Sequence record: PQ287642.1
Length of the DNA stretch: 64,000 nt
From: Pseudomonas phage HHBS36_1
Strand: one strand, 5' to 3'
Under the pieces are notes generated by a model. The model saw only the letters and a list, made by a program, of their open reading frames with translations, had not been told where the DNA came from and searched no databases. Made by a program: the position numbers and the translations under genes. Below, piece after piece: positions 2,642-54,503 of this stretch (within the stretch, counting starts at the first letter, position 1; every line of letters starts with the position of its first letter).

Positions 2642-2660
2642 CGTAATATGTGAAAAGTTA
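2642..2660 (-). promoter_or_regulatory. Weak early-promoter variant (CGTAATATGTGAAAAGTTA)
   Basis: Resembles the 12768 copy (TATAGATGTGAAAA); 25 nt upstream of a minus-strand start. Confidence 0.3.
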
Positions 2661-2708
2661 CGTTTCCTGTAACATCTATGTTACTACACTATTCCATTAG
2701 GAGCTTCA

Positions 2709-3305
2709 ATGAGTAAGTTTAGTGAGCTGCCGTTTAATTTGATGGATACAATACACCATCCAAAACCAACTCCTGAAGATGAAAAACGGCTCTCTGAAGC
2801 CCTTGATAAAATATTCCCCCATAATCCAAAATTGGAGCACAATCAAATGACCGCACTGTCCCCGAAAGAACAACTGGACCAAGCTGTAGAAGCTTCTGCT
2901 GTAGCAGCACAACAACTCATTAAAGAAGATGGCTGGGCCATTCTTCGCGAATTGTATCGCACTACAGCTGCTGCTCTTAATGCTACTTCCATTGTTATCA
3001 TTCCGGCGCTGGAGCGTCGTGAAGAAATTCTGAGTAAACTCAGTGATCCTGAAGGTTTCTCTAAAGATCTGCAAAACTGCATGTCTGATATTGAACAGAT
3101 GATCAGTGCTCTGGAAGCTCTTAGTATTCTTCACGTAAACAAAACTGGTACACCTGATCTGGCTGATCTCGATCAAATCGGTAAGCTGACTTTGGGTTAC
3201 GCAAATCTCCAACATAAAGTAGAAACAGCTGTTCAACCACTGCTGATGGGTCTCATTGCTAAGATGCAAGAAGCTGGTGTTGATACTGTTTCCTTCGTGA
3301 AATAA
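2709..3305 (+). CDS. Hypothetical protein
   Basis: AGGAG RBS before the ATG; first gene of a three-gene + strand unit that ends at the hairpin at 5395. Confidence 0.55.
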   Translation: MSKFSELPFNLMDTIHHPKPTPEDEKRLSEALDKIFPHNPKLEHNQMTALSPKEQLDQAVEASAVAAQQLIKEDGWAILRELYRTTAAALNATSIVIIPALERREEILSKLSDPEGFSKDLQNCMSDIEQMISALEALSILHVNKTGTPDLADLDQIGKLTLGYANLQHKVETAVQPLLMGLIAKMQEAGVDTVSFVK

Positions 3306-3316
3306 GGTAATACAAA

Positions 3317-4918
3317 ATGCAAGAGCTTGATATGGATAAAGAAGACAATTATCCTGCTGAGGGTAATTGGGAACAGCAAGCTGATGCAGAAGTAGAACAG
3401 GGGCCCACGGGTCCCACTCTACCAGACGCACCTGCGGAAGAAGTATCTTCTTCGCCTGCTGTTGAACTACCTCCACTGGTAATTGACCAGAAACCAGTTA
3501 ACTTCACTGAGACACGTTCTTGTTCTAGTGAAGCTATTCCTGGTATGACCTCTTTGATGAGTTTCATTCTAGAAAACCCCAAGACCTTTAACCAGGTATT
3601 GGAACGTCACTCGGCGCTATTGAATGGAATGCACCAAGGTGATCTCACTACTACTAGCAGTGACCGAGATTGGTTGATTTCTCTAGTAGCTGGTATGAAC
3701 CATACTAACCTTGACCCCACTCCTATCGGTGGGACGGAACGTGAAGGTTCTGTATGGCAACAAGGTATTACTGGTCATGATAACGGTAACCTTATTCGAC
3801 CAGGCCGCCCTTCTCAAAAGATCGATCGTAATAAACGACACAGTAAAGAAGAACTGTTGGCATACCTCTCCAAGAAATCTGGTCTTGGTGCGACATACGA
3901 AACGTTTATGCCTCGTTCGGGTATCTGGCTTCGCCTGCGTGCTCCGACACTTACTGAAGTAGTCGCATTGCAAACAGAAATGCAGCAGATCAAGCTCCGG
4001 CTGGGAATGCAAACCAAAGGCATGTCGTTCTCTAACGCTGGTTCCGTAATGATGAACGCGATGACTGACCTGGCTCTGTCTTGTGTTATTGCATCGAACA
4101 AGTCCTTCATTACTCCAAGTGACCTGGAACATGAACTATCGATCTTTGATGAAGCTATCCTGCATCATGCCCTAGCTTCTACAATGTACATTGATGGATT
4201 CAACTACGACGTTCCATGTATTGCAGACCCGGACAACTGTACGGCTCGTATCACTGCAAAACTTAACATGTCGTCTATCGTTTGGTTTGACAACACTGTA
4301 TTCAGTAATGATCAGCGTAAATTTATAGCTAAGAAATTTGCACCTGCTACGGATGAAGACTTCAAAGCTTACCGTGAAGGTTTCGGTATTGGCGGTAAGA
4401 AAGTATTCTGGTTTGGTGATATTGGTGTTCGTCTTGCTATCCCGACTATCGCTCAACGTAAGATGGCTGCTTCTCAGTGGTCTCAGACATTGATCGAAAT
4501 GTCTCAAGGTACATTTAACGAACCGCCACATGGTGTTCAACGTTCAGCGTACATTGATAAACTGAGTAAAGCTACTATCGCCATGCAGTACGCTCATTGG
4601 GTAGATGGTATCTATGAAAAGGACGACGATGTAGAAGACTTCGAAGATCAACTGCTTTCCGACGATCAAGAAATCATTAGTGATTATCTGGCGAACACTC
4701 TGAGTGATCCGCAGTACGCGGAGCAGTTCTTTGATACCGTACATGAGTATACTAACTCTTGTGTACTGGCTGTGGTAGCTCTTCCATCGCATAACTGCAA
4801 AGAATGTAAAGGTCCTCAGGGCCAAGCATTCAACGAACGTTTCCCGCACCTTGTACCGCTAGACATGATGGCAATATTTTTCACGTTGGCGGGCCAGAAA
4901 GCCAAGCACCTGGAGTAA
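3317..4918 (+). CDS. Hypothetical protein (533 aa)
   Basis: Long ORF with an AAGGTAA RBS; no recognisable motifs. Confidence 0.55.
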   Translation: MQELDMDKEDNYPAEGNWEQQADAEVEQGPTGPTLPDAPAEEVSSSPAVELPPLVIDQKPVNFTETRSCSSEAIPGMTSLMSFILENPKTFNQVLERHSALLNGMHQGDLTTTSSDRDWLISLVAGMNHTNLDPTPIGGTEREGSVWQQGITGHDNGNLIRPGRPSQKIDRNKRHSKEELLAYLSKKSGLGATYETFMPRSGIWLRLRAPTLTEVVALQTEMQQIKLRLGMQTKGMSFSNAGSVMMNAMTDLALSCVIASNKSFITPSDLEHELSIFDEAILHHALASTMYIDGFNYDVPCIADPDNCTARITAKLNMSSIVWFDNTVFSNDQRKFIAKKFAPATDEDFKAYREGFGIGGKKVFWFGDIGVRLAIPTIAQRKMAASQWSQTLIEMSQGTFNEPPHGVQRSAYIDKLSKATIAMQYAHWVDGIYEKDDDVEDFEDQLLSDDQEIISDYLANTLSDPQYAEQFFDTVHEYTNSCVLAVVALPSHNCKECKGPQGQAFNERFPHLVPLDMMAIFFTLAGQKAKHLE

Positions 4919-4956
4919 TCAACGAGGACCCCCGGCATAGTCGTCTAACAATTAAT

Positions 4957-5379
4957 TTGGAGGACGACAACGGGCACGTTACAATGAACTCTTTCGGTCG
5001 CAAGACTGTTAATGGTAAGAGTGCATTCGATGAACTCGTGCGAACGCTAGATGCCGTAAGGCCAGCTATTGCCGAAATGTTGACCAGGAAGGCCTACCAT
5101 AAAGACTACGGTATTTTCGATCATGATTCACCAGAGGCTGATCCTTTAGATCTGGTTAGAATGCATCCTAAGGAAAACGTCGTAGAAGGTGGACCTGAAA
5201 GAACTTGGATACGGAAGTTTGTCAATTACAAGATCAATGACATTTATGGTTTATCTTTACTAGAGTTCTTTGAACTACCCTTTAATGATTGTTTGTTCAT
5301 GATTGAACTTGCAGAGTCGAAGGCTATTCAAAGTACATCGCAAGCTAGACAAATCGAGAAAGATCTTGGATTAAAATAA
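4957..5379 (+). CDS. Hypothetical protein; the true start may be the ATG at 4984
   Basis: The track start is TTG with no RBS; an in-frame ATG (MNSFGRK) lies 27 nt downstream. Confidence 0.45.
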   Translation: MEDDNGHVTMNSFGRKTVNGKSAFDELVRTLDAVRPAIAEMLTRKAYHKDYGIFDHDSPEADPLDLVRMHPKENVVEGGPERTWIRKFVNYKINDIYGLSLLEFFELPFNDCLFMIELAESKAIQSTSQARQIEKDLGLK

Positions 5380-5394
5380 AAAAAAATAAAGCAT

Positions 5395-5434
5395 AGCTCC
5401 TACCCGAAGGTAGGAGCTTTATGCCGTCTTACAC
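5395..5434. terminator. Bidirectional hairpin terminator plus CTTTATGCCGTCTTACAC element
   Basis: AGCTCCTACCCGAAGGTAGGAGCT: GAAG tetraloop, A8 tract on the left, CTTTATGCCGTC on the right. Confidence 0.6.
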
Positions 5435-53270: not shown

Positions 53271-53281
53271 CTTATGTCGTG

Positions 53282-53497
53282 TTACTTGAATAAGTGGTCT
53301 GCCAGGATTACAACGAACAAAGCGAGTAATGTATTTCTCCCGCCTTTGAATACGCGTATCCACCACTTAGATCGTTTCAATGTAACTGAGTCACACCCAG
53401 CTAGCTTTTCATGTTCATATTGCTTTGTCGAATAGAGATATCCGATATTTAAAATCATTGCAATAAAGAACAGACTAGCTAAACCGAAAGCGATCAT
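53282..53497 (-). CDS. Small membrane protein
   Basis: MIAFGLASLFFIAMILNIGYLY ... LLALFVVILADHLF. Confidence 0.4.
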   Translation of the reverse strand: MIAFGLASLFFIAMILNIGYLYSTKQYEHEKLAGCDSVTLKRSKWWIRVFKGGRNTLLALFVVILADHLFK

Positions 53498-53700
53498 TAG
53501 TTATTGTAATCAACTACAGATGCGAGAAGATCAGCGGCAGTCCGATCATCAGCATTCCATAGTTTATCACACCACTCCTTATCTTCCGGATTGGTGATTT
53601 TGTGAAGTTCCATGTAACTATGGAAAGCTTGACCCCAACGTAGATTCTTATCGAGGTTCTTAAAGGAAGCCAGTCGGGTGTAGGGAATTGTTATGGCCAT
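53497..53700 (-). CDS. Hypothetical small protein
   Basis: 67-aa ORF. Confidence 0.35.
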   Translation of the reverse strand: MAITIPYTRLASFKNLDKNLRWGQAFHSYMELHKITNPEDKEWCDKLWNADDRTAADLLASVVDYNN

Positions 53701-53703
53701 AAC

Positions 53704-54069
53704 TCACCGTATGCATTTAAGGGTACGTTTAGTCTGTTCACTCAGAGGACCAGTGCAGTCACCAGTCTTCAGTGCTACCAGGGTTTGATAAAACTCAGTT
53801 AACAGTGGTCGATATTTGTCGATTTCATGTTCACTGTATTTGCCTTTAGGAAAAGCGATTGTGTAACCATCAGGTGGCGGCATGTCAAACTCGGTGAACA
53901 AGTCACCATTATCGACATAATTACAGATACCTTTGTTACAGTAGATCAGATCAGAACTATCTACCATTTCAGCGTAGAGTTGGGCATCGTATTCCACCGG
54001 ATTGAACGGATCAGCGACAGCGACTTGTAATGCAATAGTGGATACCACAGCGATGAACAGTTTACGCAT
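53704..54069 (-). CDS. Secreted or periplasmic protein with an N-terminal signal peptide
   Basis: MRKLFIAVVSTIALQVAVA-DPF is a signal-peptide-like N-terminus; four Cys residues in the mature part. Confidence 0.45.
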   Translation of the reverse strand: MRKLFIAVVSTIALQVAVADPFNPVEYDAQLYAEMVDSSDLIYCNKGICNYVDNGDLFTEFDMPPPDGYTIAFPKGKYSEHEIDKYRPLLTEFYQTLVALKTGDCTGPLSEQTKRTLKCIR

Positions 54070-54080
54070 TTCGATGTTCC

Positions 54081-54440
54081 TTACTTAGCGGTTTTGAAAT
54101 GGTTGGTTACAGCGTTGATCAACATCTCTTCGATATCGACCTTACGGTATTCTGGTTCTGCGTTCTCGTCTTCTACCATATCCCAGTAGATAGTGGCACG
54201 CAGCAGCGCTGGTGCAATGAAACGAATGATCTTGCCAGTAGCATCGAACTCCACGCTGAACATGGCATACTGTTCAGAGGTACCAGCTTTGTAGAAGATG
54301 AACGATCCGGCGAAGGTACGAATCTCCAGTTCACCGAAGGTACTGATACGGACTTGTTTATCGAAGTACTCACCTTTGGTGCGCATATTGTCTTCGATAA
54401 CAGTGAACAGTTCTTTGAGAAGTTCTTTATTGAGGTGCAT
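54081..54440 (-). CDS. Hypothetical protein, early
   Basis: Early promoter at 54474-54503. Confidence 0.45.
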   Translation of the reverse strand: MHLNKELLKELFTVIEDNMRTKGEYFDKQVRISTFGELEIRTFAGSFIFYKAGTSEQYAMFSVEFDATGKIIRFIAPALLRATIYWDMVEDENAEPEYRKVDIEEMLINAVTNHFKTAK

Positions 54441-54473
54441 TTGTAGATCCCTATTGTGGTATTGAATTCACAT

Positions 54474-54503
54474 TTGTAATATAGGTTTTTAATATATTTA
54501 AAT
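54474..54503 (-). promoter_or_regulatory. Early-promoter motif copy
   Basis: TTGTAATATAGGTTTTTAATATATTTAAAT. Confidence 0.5.

What the first reader, a model, noticed from the sequence alone, without database searches (positions are those of the whole stretch)
2642..54503. Twelve copies of an early-promoter-like motif, all oriented toward minus-strand genes
Copies lie at 2642, 6386, 12768, 17771, 27231, 29121, 39141, 41554, 46911, 48064, 51925 and 54474. All share TGTAATATAGAT(C/T)TGA(A/G)AT...TTTT on the + strand, which is AAAA...TCTATATTACA in gene sense, and each lies 20-50 nt upstream of a minus-strand start. The core TATATTAC equals the phiKZ early (virion-RNAP) promoter consensus. The motif thus maps the early regulon: nvRNAP beta/beta', the chimallin candidate, the small membrane proteins and many unknowns.
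Basis: partly seen in the sequence, partly recalled or inferred. Interest (0 to 1): 0.55.

Follow-up and report, generated by a model that had tools for sequence, protein, structure and literature searches.

The report
Early promoters of a jumbo phage
Eleven of the twelve listed sites are real copies of the promoter that phiKZ-like giant phages use, with a polymerase carried in the virus particle, to switch on their first genes; this is a well-known kind of element, here seen in a relative (PA1C/PS119XW group) whose transcripts have not been mapped.

Summary
The window is a Pseudomonas aeruginosa jumbo phage of genus Pawinskivirus, about 99% identical to PA1C, PS119XW and phiHQ. Its early genes lie on the minus strand.

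**Observation.** Eleven of the twelve sites form one motif family. In gene sense it reads: A-rich block, ATYTCARATC or TTTAAAGSC, TATATTAC, N6, G. Leave-one-out scores are 17-43 bits, against a best shuffle of 17.9. All 11 lie on the minus strand and in intergenic DNA. The core ends 29-42 nt before an ATG, or 69 nt for chimallin. Site 2642 fails (-24.5 bits). It precedes homologues of the virion proteins gp79/gp80 and has a late-type TATG instead.

**Support from relatives.**
- The window-derived matrix finds 32 sites in PS119XW, all on one strand.
- It finds about 30-34 sites in phiKZ, all on one strand. Published early-promoter counts are 28-32.
- It hits orthologous positions in phiKZ, PhiPA3, 201phi2-1 and HPP-Temi. 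Identity to the window is 94% in the core and about 34% in the flanks.

**Interpretation.** These are virion-RNA-polymerase early promoters. They drive chimallin, four nvRNAP subunit genes, DNA polymerase, PhuZ and small membrane proteins.

**Novelty and limits.** This is a new member of a known kind, of low interest. Timing, start site and polymerase are inferred, not measured.

**Side finds.**
- The motif has two conserved sub-variants.
- The chimallin leader carries a conserved palindrome.
- The helicase gene is interrupted at a G GGA AAG slippery site.

The parts
54467..54505 (-). Early promoter, sub-variant B. Core TATATTAC at 54476-54483, predicted start G at 54469. It precedes the gene starting at 54440 and three more small genes. 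A terminator-like hairpin lies just upstream (54507-54538).
   Evidence: Matrix score 42.3 bits, leave-one-out 36.6. Spacer to ATG 35 nt. Hairpin.
51917..51955 (-). Early promoter, sub-variant A. Core at 51926-51933, predicted start G at 51919. It is divergent from the + gene 51986-53230. The downstream ATG, about 40 nt on, is preceded by AAGAGG.
   Evidence: 33.9 bits, leave-one-out 23.3. Sequence.
48056..48094 (-). Early promoter and the weakest member: it has no A-tract. Core at 48065-48072, predicted start G at 48058. It precedes gene 47245-48030. The bidirectional hairpin 48098-48115 lies just upstream.
   Evidence: 29.0 bits, but leave-one-out 17.3, which is at the level of the best shuffle. 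Spacer 34 nt. Hairpin.
46903..46941 (-). Early promoter, sub-variant A. Core at 46912-46919, predicted start G at 46905. It heads the unit that contains PhuZ (44657-45610).
   Evidence: 41.0 bits, leave-one-out 33.5. Spacer 39 nt. PhuZ annotation. Orthologous sites in HPP-Temi and PhiPA3.
41547..41585 (-). Early promoter, sub-variant B. Core at 41556-41563, predicted start G at 41549. It precedes two small genes (41298-41522, 41056-41286). It lies between terminators 41604-41627 and 41024-41047.
   Evidence: 37.0 bits, leave-one-out 26.4. A phiKZ sub-variant B site sits at the matching position in the syntenic region, before PHIKZ041.3. Terminators.
39133..39171 (-). Early promoter, sub-variant A, with core variant TATATCAT at 39142-39149. 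Predicted start G at 39135. It is divergent from the + gene 39262-40074. It heads the long unit that reaches the DNA polymerase gene (32146-34296).
   Evidence: 37.8 bits, leave-one-out 28.9. Spacer 29 nt. The TATATCAT variant is kept at the orthologous site in four genera. DNA polymerase is Pfam PF20286.
29111..29149 (-). Early promoter, sub-variant A, with core TATATCAT at 29120-29127. Predicted start G at 29113. It precedes gene 27452-29077 and is divergent from the + gene 29159-30244, the homologue of phiKZ head protein gp52.
   Evidence: 40.8 bits, leave-one-out 34.2. Spacer 42 nt. Orthologous sites.
27222..27260 (-). Early promoter of the chimallin unit, sub-variant A, with core TATATAAC at 27231-27238. 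Predicted start G at 27224. The leader is about 63 nt long and contains the palindrome TTCTTGATCAAGAA (27186-27199).
   Evidence: 43.1 bits, leave-one-out 37.0. Spacer 69 nt. Orthologous sites before chimallin in phiKZ, PhiPA3, 201phi2-1 and HPP-Temi. PHIKZ054 has an early-motif primary start (PMC8244752).
17764..17802 (-). Early promoter, sub-variant A and the best match. Core at 17773-17780, predicted start G at 17766. It precedes the homologues of gp68, gp69 and gp70.
   Evidence: 46.9 bits, leave-one-out 42.9. Spacer 32 nt. A matrix hit lies at the orthologous position before 201phi2-1 gp124, the gene upstream of which the ONT-cappable-seq study places an early promoter (PMC11512511).
12760..12798 (-). 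Early promoter, sub-variant A, with core TATATAAT at 12769-12776. Predicted start G at 12762. It precedes the nvRNAP beta and beta' C genes and is divergent from the + gene 12810-13172.
   Evidence: 32.8 bits, leave-one-out 22.7. Spacer 32 nt. Orthologous sites.
6380..6418 (-). Early promoter, sub-variant B. Core at 6389-6396, predicted start G at 6382. It precedes four small two-segment membrane proteins (5429-6353). Its upstream part overlaps the 3' end of gene 6401-6703.
   Evidence: 40.0 bits, leave-one-out 32.0. Spacer 35 nt. Hydropathy. A phiKZ sub-variant B site lies at the syntenic position, before PHIKZ076.
2634..2672 (-). Rejected twelfth site (CACATATTAC). It is not a family member. 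The region precedes the gp79/gp80 homologues. It carries CCGTATGTTA about 33 nt before the ATG, matching CCCTATGTTA before PHIKZ079. This fits a late-type TATG promoter.
   Evidence: -24.5 bits. 12 of 19 mismatches. Homology and upstream sequences. Late consensus T-3 A T G+1 from PMC7598289.
25296..27161 (-). Chimallin (nuclear shell protein), the first gene after promoter 27231.
   Evidence: Pfam PF25677 at 1101.8 bits. PHROG nuclear shell protein. 48.5% identical to PHIKZ054.
23437..24903 (-). nvRNAP beta' N-terminal part (phiKZ gp55 homologue), in the chimallin transcription unit.
   Evidence: PHROG 2987 at E = 9.6e-189. Pfam RNA_pol_Rpb1_2. Synteny.
16163..17740 (-). Homologue of phiKZ gp68, the fifth nvRNAP subunit. 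It is the first gene after promoter 17773.
   Evidence: PHROG 3209. Synteny with PHIKZ068, PhiPA3 062 and 201phi2-1 gp124. The role of gp68 is taken from PMC7598289.
8625..12736 (-). nvRNAP beta (10625-12736, gp71/73-like) and beta' C part (8625-10598, gp74-like), downstream of promoter 12769.
   Evidence: PHROGs 3295 and 3015. Pfam RNA_pol_Rpb2_6.
403..1746 (-). Virion RNAP subunit (PHIKZ080 homologue). It is part of the enzyme proposed to read the motif. It has no early motif of its own.
   Evidence: 70% identical to PHIKZ080. PHROG 2962, RNA polymerase beta subunit. PHIKZ080 is listed as a virion RNAP subunit in PMC8244752.
5429..6353 (-). Four consecutive small proteins (69, 62, 86 and 79 aa), each with two hydrophobic segments. 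They form the unit driven by promoter 6389 and end at terminator 5395-5418.
   Evidence: Hydropathy scan. Terminator.

Best explanation
The 11 sites are early promoters of a phiKZ-like, nucleus-forming jumbo phage. They are read by the multisubunit RNA polymerase that is packaged in the virion and injected with the DNA.

**Anatomy in gene sense** (positions relative to the predicted start site).
- An A/T-rich block around -35 to -30. It is an A-tract in sub-variant A and ATTTAAA in sub-variant B.
- A block around -24 to -15. It is ATYTCARATC in A and TTTAAAGSC in B.
- The core TATATTAC at about -14 to -7.
- Six variable bases, then a conserved (T)G, which I predict to be +1.

**Proposed mechanism.** The polymerase binds this roughly 40-bp duplex element. 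It starts about 7 nt past the core and makes leaders of 23-36 nt (63 nt for chimallin). It transcribes leftward until a GC-rich hairpin terminator or the end of the gene block.

**Products.**
- chimallin
- four of the five non-virion RNAP subunit genes
- the divergent family-B DNA polymerase
- PhuZ
- a helicase
- many small proteins, including membrane proteins

These build the second polymerase and the phage nucleus, which then take over middle and late transcription.

**Shown here:** the motif, its statistics, strand, intergenic position, spacing, downstream genes, and conservation at orthologous sites in five genomes.

**Inferred from phiKZ, 201phi2-1 and AR9 experiments:** early timing, the start nucleotide, and recognition by the virion polymerase.
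For: **Family is real.** Leave-one-out scores are 17-43 bits, against a best shuffle of 17.9. No extra sites appear on either strand.

**Position.** All 11 cores are intergenic, in a region that is 7.8% intergenic (P about 6e-13). All 11 are on one strand. Spacing to the ATG is 29-42 nt, or 69 nt for chimallin. G lies at +7 after the core in 11 of 11. This matches the AR9 early consensus AAATATATATTAT-(6N)-G, where that G is the mapped start (PMC5312081).

**Match to published consensus.** phiKZ is TATATTAC. 201phi2-1 is ...TTTRARR_BTATATTACDWHDGTG (PMC7058600). Conserved -10, -20 and -30 regions are described for phiKZ and 201phi2-1 (PMC11512511).

**Transfer test.**
- The window-derived matrix finds 32 sites above the shuffle maximum in PS119XW, all on one strand.
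- It finds 30 sites at or above 15.3 bits in phiKZ (34 at or above 12), all on the leading strand.
- Published counts are 28-32 early promoters with a unidirectional layout.

**Orthology.** Sites sit before chimallin, gp68, gp71, gp53, gp43, gp41.3 and gp76 homologues in phiKZ, PhiPA3, 201phi2-1 and HPP-Temi. Identity to the window is 0.94 in the core, 0.62 at -30..-1, and 0.34-0.35 in the flanks.

**Experimental anchors in relatives.** PHIKZ054 has a primary start with the early motif. An early promoter was found by ONT-cappable-seq before 201phi2-1 gp124.

**Specificity.** The two minus-strand blocks of virion genes lack the motif: tail sheath 55663-57756, and gp79/gp80-like 403-2584.

**Both polymerase sets are encoded.**
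- nvRNAP genes are in the window.
- The fifth nvRNAP gene lies behind a 38.6-bit site in PS119XW.
- Virion-type subunits are window 403-1746 and PS119XW gp212/gp213.
Against: - There are no transcript data for this phage or its genus. Timing, start site and polymerase are borrowed from relatives 48-66% identical in chimallin.
- The matrix was trained on the sites it scores. Leave-one-out and cross-genome scans mitigate this but do not remove it.
- Site 48065 has a leave-one-out score (17.3) no better than the best shuffle. It rests on its exact core and its position.
- Site 12769 has a perfect sigma-70 -10 hexamer (TATAAT). In 201phi2-1 the orthologous genes gp129/gp130 were seen transcribed from a middle promoter. 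That site may therefore not be the main driver of those genes.
- In phiKZ, chimallin also has a secondary, middle-type start. So 'early regulon' does not mean early only.
- In 201phi2-1, ONT-cappable-seq confirmed only 6 early promoters. Motif presence therefore does not guarantee detectable use.
Confidence: 0.9

Rival explanations
1. The sites are host sigma-70 promoters. The A/T-rich -35-like block plus a TATAAT-like hexamer would be read by Pseudomonas RNA polymerase at the start of infection.
For: - The last six bases of the core resemble TATAAT. Site 12769 is a perfect TATAAT.
- The consensus scan flags two overlaps with family sites, 29135-29106 and 41572-41544.
Against: - Seven of 11 cores end in C where sigma-70 needs the near-invariant T.
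- Conservation extends to positions sigma-70 does not read: the ATC just upstream of the core and the TG at +6/+7.
- Only 2 of 11 sites pass even a lax sigma-70 scan.
- Sigma-70-like sites are depleted overall, 74 found against about 118 expected.
- phiKZ infection is rifampicin-insensitive and host-RNAP-independent (PMC13282480; PMC8244752).
Confidence: 0.03
2. Some or all sites are promoters for the non-virion polymerase (middle or late class) rather than for the virion enzyme.
For: - The polymerase identity is untested here.
- PHIKZ054 has a second, middle-type start.
- 201phi2-1 gp129/gp130 are seen from a middle promoter.
Against: - Published middle and late motifs differ. The middle motif is an A-rich block with TACT centred near -22. 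The late motif is TATG at the start.
- The motif here equals the early one.
- It precedes the nvRNAP genes themselves, which must be made before nvRNAP exists.
- It is absent before the virion-gene blocks.
Confidence: 0.05
3. The repeat is not a promoter. It would be a binding site for a regulator, a replication or packaging signal, or a mobile repeat that happens to lie between genes.
For: There is no direct transcription evidence in this phage. The motif columns co-vary (z = 15). That would also be expected if the copies spread by duplication.
Against: - Strict co-orientation with downstream genes: 11 of 11 here, 32 of 32 in PS119XW.
- Tight spacing to Shine-Dalgarno sequence and ATG.
- Placement at the head of every non-virion minus-strand gene block, often right after a terminator.
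- Retention at orthologous positions across four genera while the flanks are randomised.
- Identity with experimentally mapped promoters.
Confidence: 0.02

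Closest known systems
phiKZ early promoters (virion RNAP; 28-32 sites; consensus TATATTAC with a T/A-rich upstream part)
   Same: - Identical core.
- Same upstream A/T-rich organisation.
- All sites on one strand.
- Similar number per genome: 32 in PS119XW against 28-32 published.
- Same genes served: chimallin, gp68, gp71-74, gp53, gp43 and gp76 positions.
- The window-derived matrix scores phiKZ sites at 20-35 bits.
   Different: - Different genus; chimallin is 48.5% identical.
- Host-genome-like GC is higher: 43.6% against 36.8%.
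- The -20 block prefers ATCTCAGATC or TTTCAAATC, where phiKZ has TTTAAGATC or TTTGAGATT.
- No transcript mapping exists for this phage.
201phi2-1 early promoter (TTAWTAVAA_HYWTTTRARR_BTATATTACDWHDGTG)
   Same: The same three-block layout and the GTG after the core. Orthologous sites lie before gp105 (chimallin), gp124 and gp128/129. An early promoter before gp124 was reported from ONT-cappable-seq.
   Different: The window matrix gives lower scores there (14-36 bits). In 201phi2-1 the core before gp128/129 is TATATTAC, while here it is TATATAAT. The 201phi2-1 study saw gp129/130 from a middle promoter.
AR9 early promoters (AAATATATATTAT-(6N)-G; virion RNAP of a uracil-DNA Bacillus jumbo phage)
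   Same: The core TATATTAT is close to TATATTAC. The spacing of six bases to the initiating G is the same, and all 11 sites here have that G.
   Different: AR9 is a distant phage with no nucleus and uracil DNA. Its upstream blocks differ. The resemblance supports the start-site prediction only by analogy.
OBP / N1M2 / EL predicted early promoters (…TTTCARRYAKATATTATYWAAGTG…; WTTTYAAACCTACATTATY)
   Same: Sub-variant B here (TTTAAAGCC TATATTAC AAATGTGA) has the same TTTYAAA-N-core-AAGTG layout.
   Different: Those cores are ATATTAT or TACATTAT. They are bioinformatic predictions in more distant genera.

Membership tests
phiKZ-type virion-RNAP early promoter | A conserved AT-rich element of about 8-10 nt (TATATTAC in phiKZ). 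| tested here: met
   Seven of 11 cores are exact TATATTAC. The other four differ at 1-2 positions: TATATAAC, TATATAAT, and TATATCAT twice. Consensus from PMC7058600.
phiKZ-type virion-RNAP early promoter | The element is centred near -10 relative to a mapped transcription start. | not testable with these tools
   No transcript data are available. I predict the start at the G 7 nt after the core, which is present in 11 of 11. This is by analogy with AR9, where the G after six bases is the start.
phiKZ-type virion-RNAP early promoter | Additional conserved A/T-rich blocks around -20 and -30. | tested here: met
   Information content and cross-genus identity are high from -20 to -1 relative to the core. 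The blocks are described for phiKZ and 201phi2-1 in PMC11512511 and PMC8244752.
phiKZ-type virion-RNAP early promoter | Sites lie upstream of early operons and all on one (leading) strand. | tested here: met
   11 of 11 on the window minus strand. 32 of 32 on one strand in PS119XW. 34 of 34 in phiKZ. All are intergenic and 29-69 nt before an ATG.
phiKZ-type virion-RNAP early promoter | Positional orthology with experimentally mapped early promoters. | tested here: met
   Matrix hits lie at the orthologous positions before PHIKZ054, which has an early-motif primary start, and before 201phi2-1 gp124, before which an early promoter was mapped.
phiKZ-type virion-RNAP early promoter | The genome encodes a virion RNAP set and a separate non-virion set. 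| tested here: met
   The gp80 homologue is in the window. PS119XW gp212 and gp213 match RNAP beta-subunit PHROGs. gp213 carries the sequence DFDGD, which I read as the catalytic motif. nvRNAP homologues come. Packaging of the virion set was not tested.
phiKZ-type virion-RNAP early promoter | Transcription within minutes of infection, independent of host RNAP and of new protein synthesis. | not testable with these tools
   This needs RNA from infected cells with and without rifampicin and chloramphenicol.
phiKZ-type virion-RNAP early promoter | Specific initiation by the virion RNAP in vitro. | not testable with these tools
   In the papers I read, vRNAP use of early promoters rests on in-vivo evidence, and I found no in-vitro initiation assay.
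Bacterial sigma-70 promoter | A TTGACA-like -35 and a TATAAT-like -10 with T at the last position, 16-18 nt apart. | tested here: not met
   Only 2 of 11 sites overlap a lax consensus hit. Seven of 11 cores end in C.
phiKZ late promoter (T-3 A T G+1) | A TATG at the start site, upstream of virion-protein genes. | tested here: inconclusive
   This applies only to the rejected site 2642. CCGTATGTTA lies about 33 nt before the ATG of the gp79 homologue. CCCTATGTTA lies at the same place before PHIKZ079. A 4-nt motif cannot be tested statistically.

The most novel reading that the evidence does not exclude
The early promoters fall into two architectures, and each is kept at orthologous sites across genera.

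- **Sub-variant A:** A-tract + ATYTCARATC. It heads long operons with chimallin, nvRNAP and replication genes.
- **Sub-variant B:** tandem ATTTAAA…TTTAAAGSC + AAATGTGAT. In the window it heads three short, terminator-bounded operons of small proteins.

This could mark two regulatory classes of virion-RNAP promoters. They might differ in strength, timing (immediate versus delayed early), or requirement for a co-injected factor. I did not find this split described in the papers I read.

Evidence so far:
- Column covariation is z = 15.
- By hand I classed 19 sites as A and 14 as B in PS119XW.
- The class is kept in 7 of 7 orthologous sets.
- Both classes are visible in phiKZ.

The covariation could also come from duplication history alone. 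The link to operon type weakens genome-wide.
Probability: 0.25. Interest if true: 0.45.

Novelty: new member of a known kind. Interest (0 to 1): 0.22.

Why it matters
The motif gives a ready-made map of the early transcription units of the PA1C/PS119XW group. These phages are used in phage-nucleus research and considered for therapy, and their transcripts have not been mapped.

- **What the map shows.** Chimallin, all five nvRNAP subunit genes (four in this window), DNA polymerase, PhuZ and several clusters of small proteins sit behind early promoters. Virion genes, including the virion polymerase subunit, do not.
- **Practical use.** The roughly 40-bp elements can drive early expression of inserted cassettes, as has been done with a phiKZ consensus early promoter (PMC12676376).
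- **Transfer.** An 11-site matrix from one genus carries over cleanly to other Pseudomonas genera (Phikzvirus, Miltoncavirus, Serwervirus).

None of this changes what is known about how these phages work.

Tried and rejected
**Scans**
- A first matrix with a very small pseudocount over-fitted: every non-training position scored far below zero. I repeated it with a larger pseudocount and leave-one-out scoring.
- I looked for weaker or plus-strand copies in the window. Nothing at or above 6 bits lies in a plausible position. The + strand hits at 17792, 46931 and 51945 are the A-tract of the same sites read backwards.

**Literature**
- The primary phiKZ transcription paper (Ceyssens 2014) is not held, by DOI or by PMC id.
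- Supplementary start-site tables of the phiKZ dRNA-seq and ONT-cappable-seq papers are not held. Exact phiKZ start coordinates could therefore not be overlaid.
- I found no paper describing promoters of PA1C, PS119XW or HPP-Temi.

**Other features**
- Rfam and tRNA scans of the window found nothing.
- The chimallin-leader palindrome CTTGATCAAG is not a repeated motif in the window: 2 exact copies, and 7 with at most 1 mismatch against 2.9 expected. The leader RNA does not fold unusually well (z = -0.6).
- Average-linkage clustering did not split the two sub-variants cleanly; it returned one singleton. The split rests on column covariation and on manual classification by the bases just upstream of the core.

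**Rejected readings**
- The sigma-70 reading and the non-promoter reading. Reasons are given under the rival explanations.

Full report
**Source of the window.** The window matches Pseudomonas aeruginosa jumbo phages PA1C, PS119XW, phiHQ, BRkr and phiLBG22 at about 99% identity over its whole length. It matches HPP-Temi at 82-88% and PhiPA3 at about 73-77% in parts. These phages belong to genus Pawinskivirus. The window is the reverse complement of roughly the first 4-68 kb of the PA1C record. The genes that are 'forward' in the databases are therefore on the window's minus strand.

**Checking the observation.** I extracted all twelve sites in gene sense and aligned them on the TATATTAC-like core. 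Eleven align without gaps over about 40 nt:
- an A/T-rich block,
- then ATYTCARATC or TTTAAAGSC,
- then the core,
- then six variable bases with a conserved TG at positions +6/+7.

A 39-nt weight matrix built from the eleven gives leave-one-out scores of 17.3-42.9 bits. In 100 shuffles of the window the best score averaged 11.2 and never exceeded 17.9. Nothing else in the window, on either strand, exceeds chance.

The weakest true member is 48065, which lacks the A-tract and has a leave-one-out score of 17.3.

**Position.** In the annotated close relative PS119XW, intergenic DNA is 7.8% of the matching 63.7 kb. All eleven cores lie in it, which by random placement has a probability of about 6e-13. 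All eleven are on the minus strand. From the last base of the core to the ATG there are 29-42 nt at ten sites and 69 nt at chimallin. A Shine-Dalgarno-like purine run is evident before most of these start codons.

Four sites sit just downstream of a hairpin that ends the preceding gene block: 41556, 46912, 48065 and 54476. Three of these hairpins are GC-rich terminator-like calls. The one before 46912 (GGGGCTACAAAGCCCC) has no T-run and was seen by eye. Four other sites sit in divergent intergenic regions: 12769, 29120, 39142 and 51926.

Every minus-strand block of non-virion genes begins with a site. The two minus-strand blocks that begin with virion genes have none: tail sheath 55663-57756, and the gp79/gp80 homologues 403-2584.

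**Genes served.**
- Site 27231: chimallin (Pfam PF25677, 1101.8 bits), followed in the same block by the nvRNAP beta' N part (23437-24903).
- Site 17773: the gp68, gp69 and gp70 homologues.
- Site 12769: nvRNAP beta (10625-12736) and beta' C (8625-10598), then the helicase.
- Site 39142: a long block reaching the divergent family-B DNA polymerase.
- Site 46912: the block with PhuZ.
- Site 6389: four proteins of 62-86 aa, each with two hydrophobic segments.

In PS119XW the fifth nvRNAP gene (gp144, 70% identical to PHIKZ123) lies behind a 38.6-bit site at 117685. All five nvRNAP genes of this species are therefore downstream of the motif.

**Why site 2642 fails biologically as well.** It precedes the homologues of PHIKZ079 (43% identity) and PHIKZ080 (70% identity). 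Both are annotated as structural head proteins, and gp80 is a virion-RNAP subunit. phiKZ has no early motif there either. Both phages carry C(C/G)TATGTTA about 33 nt before the ATG. This fits the late consensus T-3 A T G+1 (PMC7598289). A 4-nt match proves nothing by itself.

**Evidence from related genomes.** I assembled PS119XW (301.5 kb) and phiKZ (280.3 kb) from annotated pieces and scanned both with the window-derived matrix.
- PS119XW has 32 sites above its shuffle maximum of 18.3 bits. All are on one strand. Most end 26-49 nt before an ATG; six lie 69-108 nt upstream (read against the annotation).
- phiKZ has 34 sites at or above 12 bits. Thirty are at or above the mean shuffle maximum (15.3) and 24 are above the absolute maximum (21.8). 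All are on the leading strand.
- The literature reports 28 (primer extension and RNA-seq) to 32 (dRNA-seq) phiKZ early promoters and a unidirectional layout of early genes (PMC8244752, PMC10914365, PMC13282480).
- The phiKZ hits include the sites before PHIKZ054 and PHIKZ260. dRNA-seq mapped a primary start for both, and for PHIKZ054 the text ties that start to the early motif.

In the 42-kb regions around chimallin of phiKZ, PhiPA3, 201phi2-1 and HPP-Temi, hits fall at the same gene positions as in the window. Anchored on the core without gaps, identity between the window and the three other genera is 0.94 in the core. It is 0.62 at -30..-1, 0.57 at +8..+16, and 0.34-0.35 in the flanks. That is a clear footprint. 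The 201phi2-1 study reports an early promoter before gp124 and a motif-predicted one about 3 kb before gp107. A matrix hit lies just before gp124, and another lies just before chimallin gp105, about 2.6 kb ahead of gp107.

**Mechanism.** Published work on phiKZ, 201phi2-1 and AR9 shows three things. Transcripts behind this motif appear first. They need neither host RNA polymerase nor new protein synthesis. They are therefore made by the polymerase injected from the virion.

The AR9 early consensus AAATATATATTAT-(6N)-G has the final G as the mapped start. All eleven sites here have G at that position. I therefore predict starts at 6382, 12762, 17766, 27224, 29113, 39135, 41549, 46905, 48058, 51919 and 54469. 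These give leaders of 23-36 nt, or 63 nt for chimallin. Typical phiKZ leaders are 31-40 nt.

A virion-type RNAP set is encoded. It comprises the gp80 homologue in the window and PS119XW gp212 (1453 aa) and gp213. gp213 carries the sequence DFDGD, which I read as the catalytic motif.

Motif, position and conservation are shown here. Timing, start base and polymerase identity are inferred.

**Rival explanations.**
- *Sigma-70 promoter.* This is unlikely. Seven cores end in C where sigma-70 needs T. Conservation covers positions sigma-70 does not read. Only two sites overlap a lax consensus hit. Sigma-70-like sites are depleted in the window, 74 found against about 118 expected. Site 12769, with a perfect TATAAT, is the one place where host polymerase could plausibly also bind.
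- *Middle or late promoter.* This does not fit the published motifs. It also cannot explain how the nvRNAP genes would first be expressed.
- *Non-promoter repeat.* This does not explain the strict orientation, the spacing to start codons, or the orthologous retention.

[quoted passage not shown] I found no description of it for Pawinskivirus. This is a new member of a known kind.

**Two sub-variants.** The 33 PS119XW sites I aligned (the 32 above the shuffle maximum plus one well-placed borderline site at 17.1 bits) show strong covariation between columns. Total pairwise mutual information is 78.0, against 57.5 ± 1.3 for column shuffles (z = 15).
- By the bases upstream of the core they split into sub-variant A (19 sites) and sub-variant B (14 sites).
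- In all seven orthologous sets the sub-variant is the same in every genus.
- Both sub-variants are visible in phiKZ.
- In the window, B sites head three short, terminator-bounded operons of small proteins. A sites head the long operons with core genes. Genome-wide this link is less clear.
- Shared duplication history could produce the covariation without any functional split.

**Other things seen in passing.** These are listed separately below:
- a conserved palindrome in the chimallin leader;
- the core variant TATATCAT at divergent sites;
- TTTATGT after terminator hairpins;
- a 362-bp length difference in the gp55 homologue region of PS119XW;
- a helicase gene interrupted by a 1-nt deletion exactly at a G GGA AAG heptamer inside its Walker A motif, identical in five independent isolates.

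Noticed in passing
window 7034-8568 (-), junction at about 8130-8150: The gp75-type helicase is split into two ORFs (8131-8568 and 7034-8116). The cause is a 1-nt deletion relative to PhiPA3 and HPP-Temi, inside the Walker A motif (QTGKGKT). The break lies on G GGA AAG in the zero frame, which I recall (not checked here) as the -1 slippery heptamer of phage lambda G/GT. A -1 slip there restores TGKGKTLTS exactly as in the relatives. The 101-nt junction is 100% identical in phiHQ, PA1C, PS119XW, phiLBG22 and BRkr, so it is not a sequencing error. It is a candidate programmed -1 frameshift, or otherwise a split or inactivated helicase.
   Followed up: partly
window 27186-27199 (-), chimallin 5' leader: A 14-nt perfect palindrome, TTCTTGATCAAGAA, lies about 25 nt before the chimallin ATG. 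The core CTTGATCAAG is kept in phiKZ, PhiPA3, 201phi2-1 and HPP-Temi. PhiPA3 has TACTTGATCAAGTA, a paired change that keeps the palindrome. It is not a repeated motif in the window. The leader RNA does not fold unusually well. It may coincide with the secondary, middle-type start reported for PHIKZ054.
   Followed up: partly
window 29120-29127 and 39142-39149; related: 12769-12779, 51926-51936: Early sites that face a divergent plus-strand gene carry the core variant TATATCAT (or have CAT just after the core). This variant is kept at the orthologous sites before gp43 (phiKZ, PhiPA3, 201phi2-1) and before gp53 and gp71 (phiKZ, PhiPA3). On the other strand, 29120 and 39142 read CTATGATATA, which contains the late-type TATG pointing toward the divergent gene. 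Overlapping early and late promoters are possible but untested.
   Followed up: partly
window-wide, e.g. 48098-48115, 53250-53271, 30722-30739, 54507-54526 (-): GC-rich terminator-like hairpins are about twice as frequent as in shuffles: 24, 28 and 36 found against about 14-15 expected per 20 kb. Several are followed by TTTATGT rather than a plain T-run.
   Followed up: no
window 1-60000: Sigma-70-like promoter matches are fewer than in dinucleotide-preserving shuffles: 29 vs 37.1, 24 vs 40.9, and 21 vs 40.3. This is consistent with a phage that does not use host RNA polymerase.
   Followed up: no
window 23437-24903 (-) vs L001 (PS119XW) 23436-25264: PS119XW carries about 362 bp more than the window within or next to the gp55-like nvRNAP beta' N gene. 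There it is annotated as two ORFs, gp055 and gp056. phiKZ is reported to have predicted intron or homing-endonuclease insertions at gp56 and gp72. This may be a similar mobile insertion present in some isolates only.
   Followed up: no
PS119XW record 117685-118172 (outside the window; L003 about 49069-49556): A strong early site (38.6 bits) just after the major head gene is followed by a Shine-Dalgarno sequence, an ATG and an open frame of at least 150 aa. This lies in a 658-nt stretch with no annotated gene, at the position of PHIKZ121. It sits upstream of the gp122 and gp123 (nvRNAP beta C) homologues.
   Followed up: partly
window 17803-17862 (-), upstream of the gp68-homologue promoter: A hairpin (CATCTCT…AGAGATG) is followed by CTGTATGCCC(TC). 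The TATGCCC part is kept in PhiPA3, phiKZ and 201phi2-1 at a similar distance upstream of the early core. It could be a terminator tail or a late-type TATG start for continued expression of gp68.
   Followed up: no
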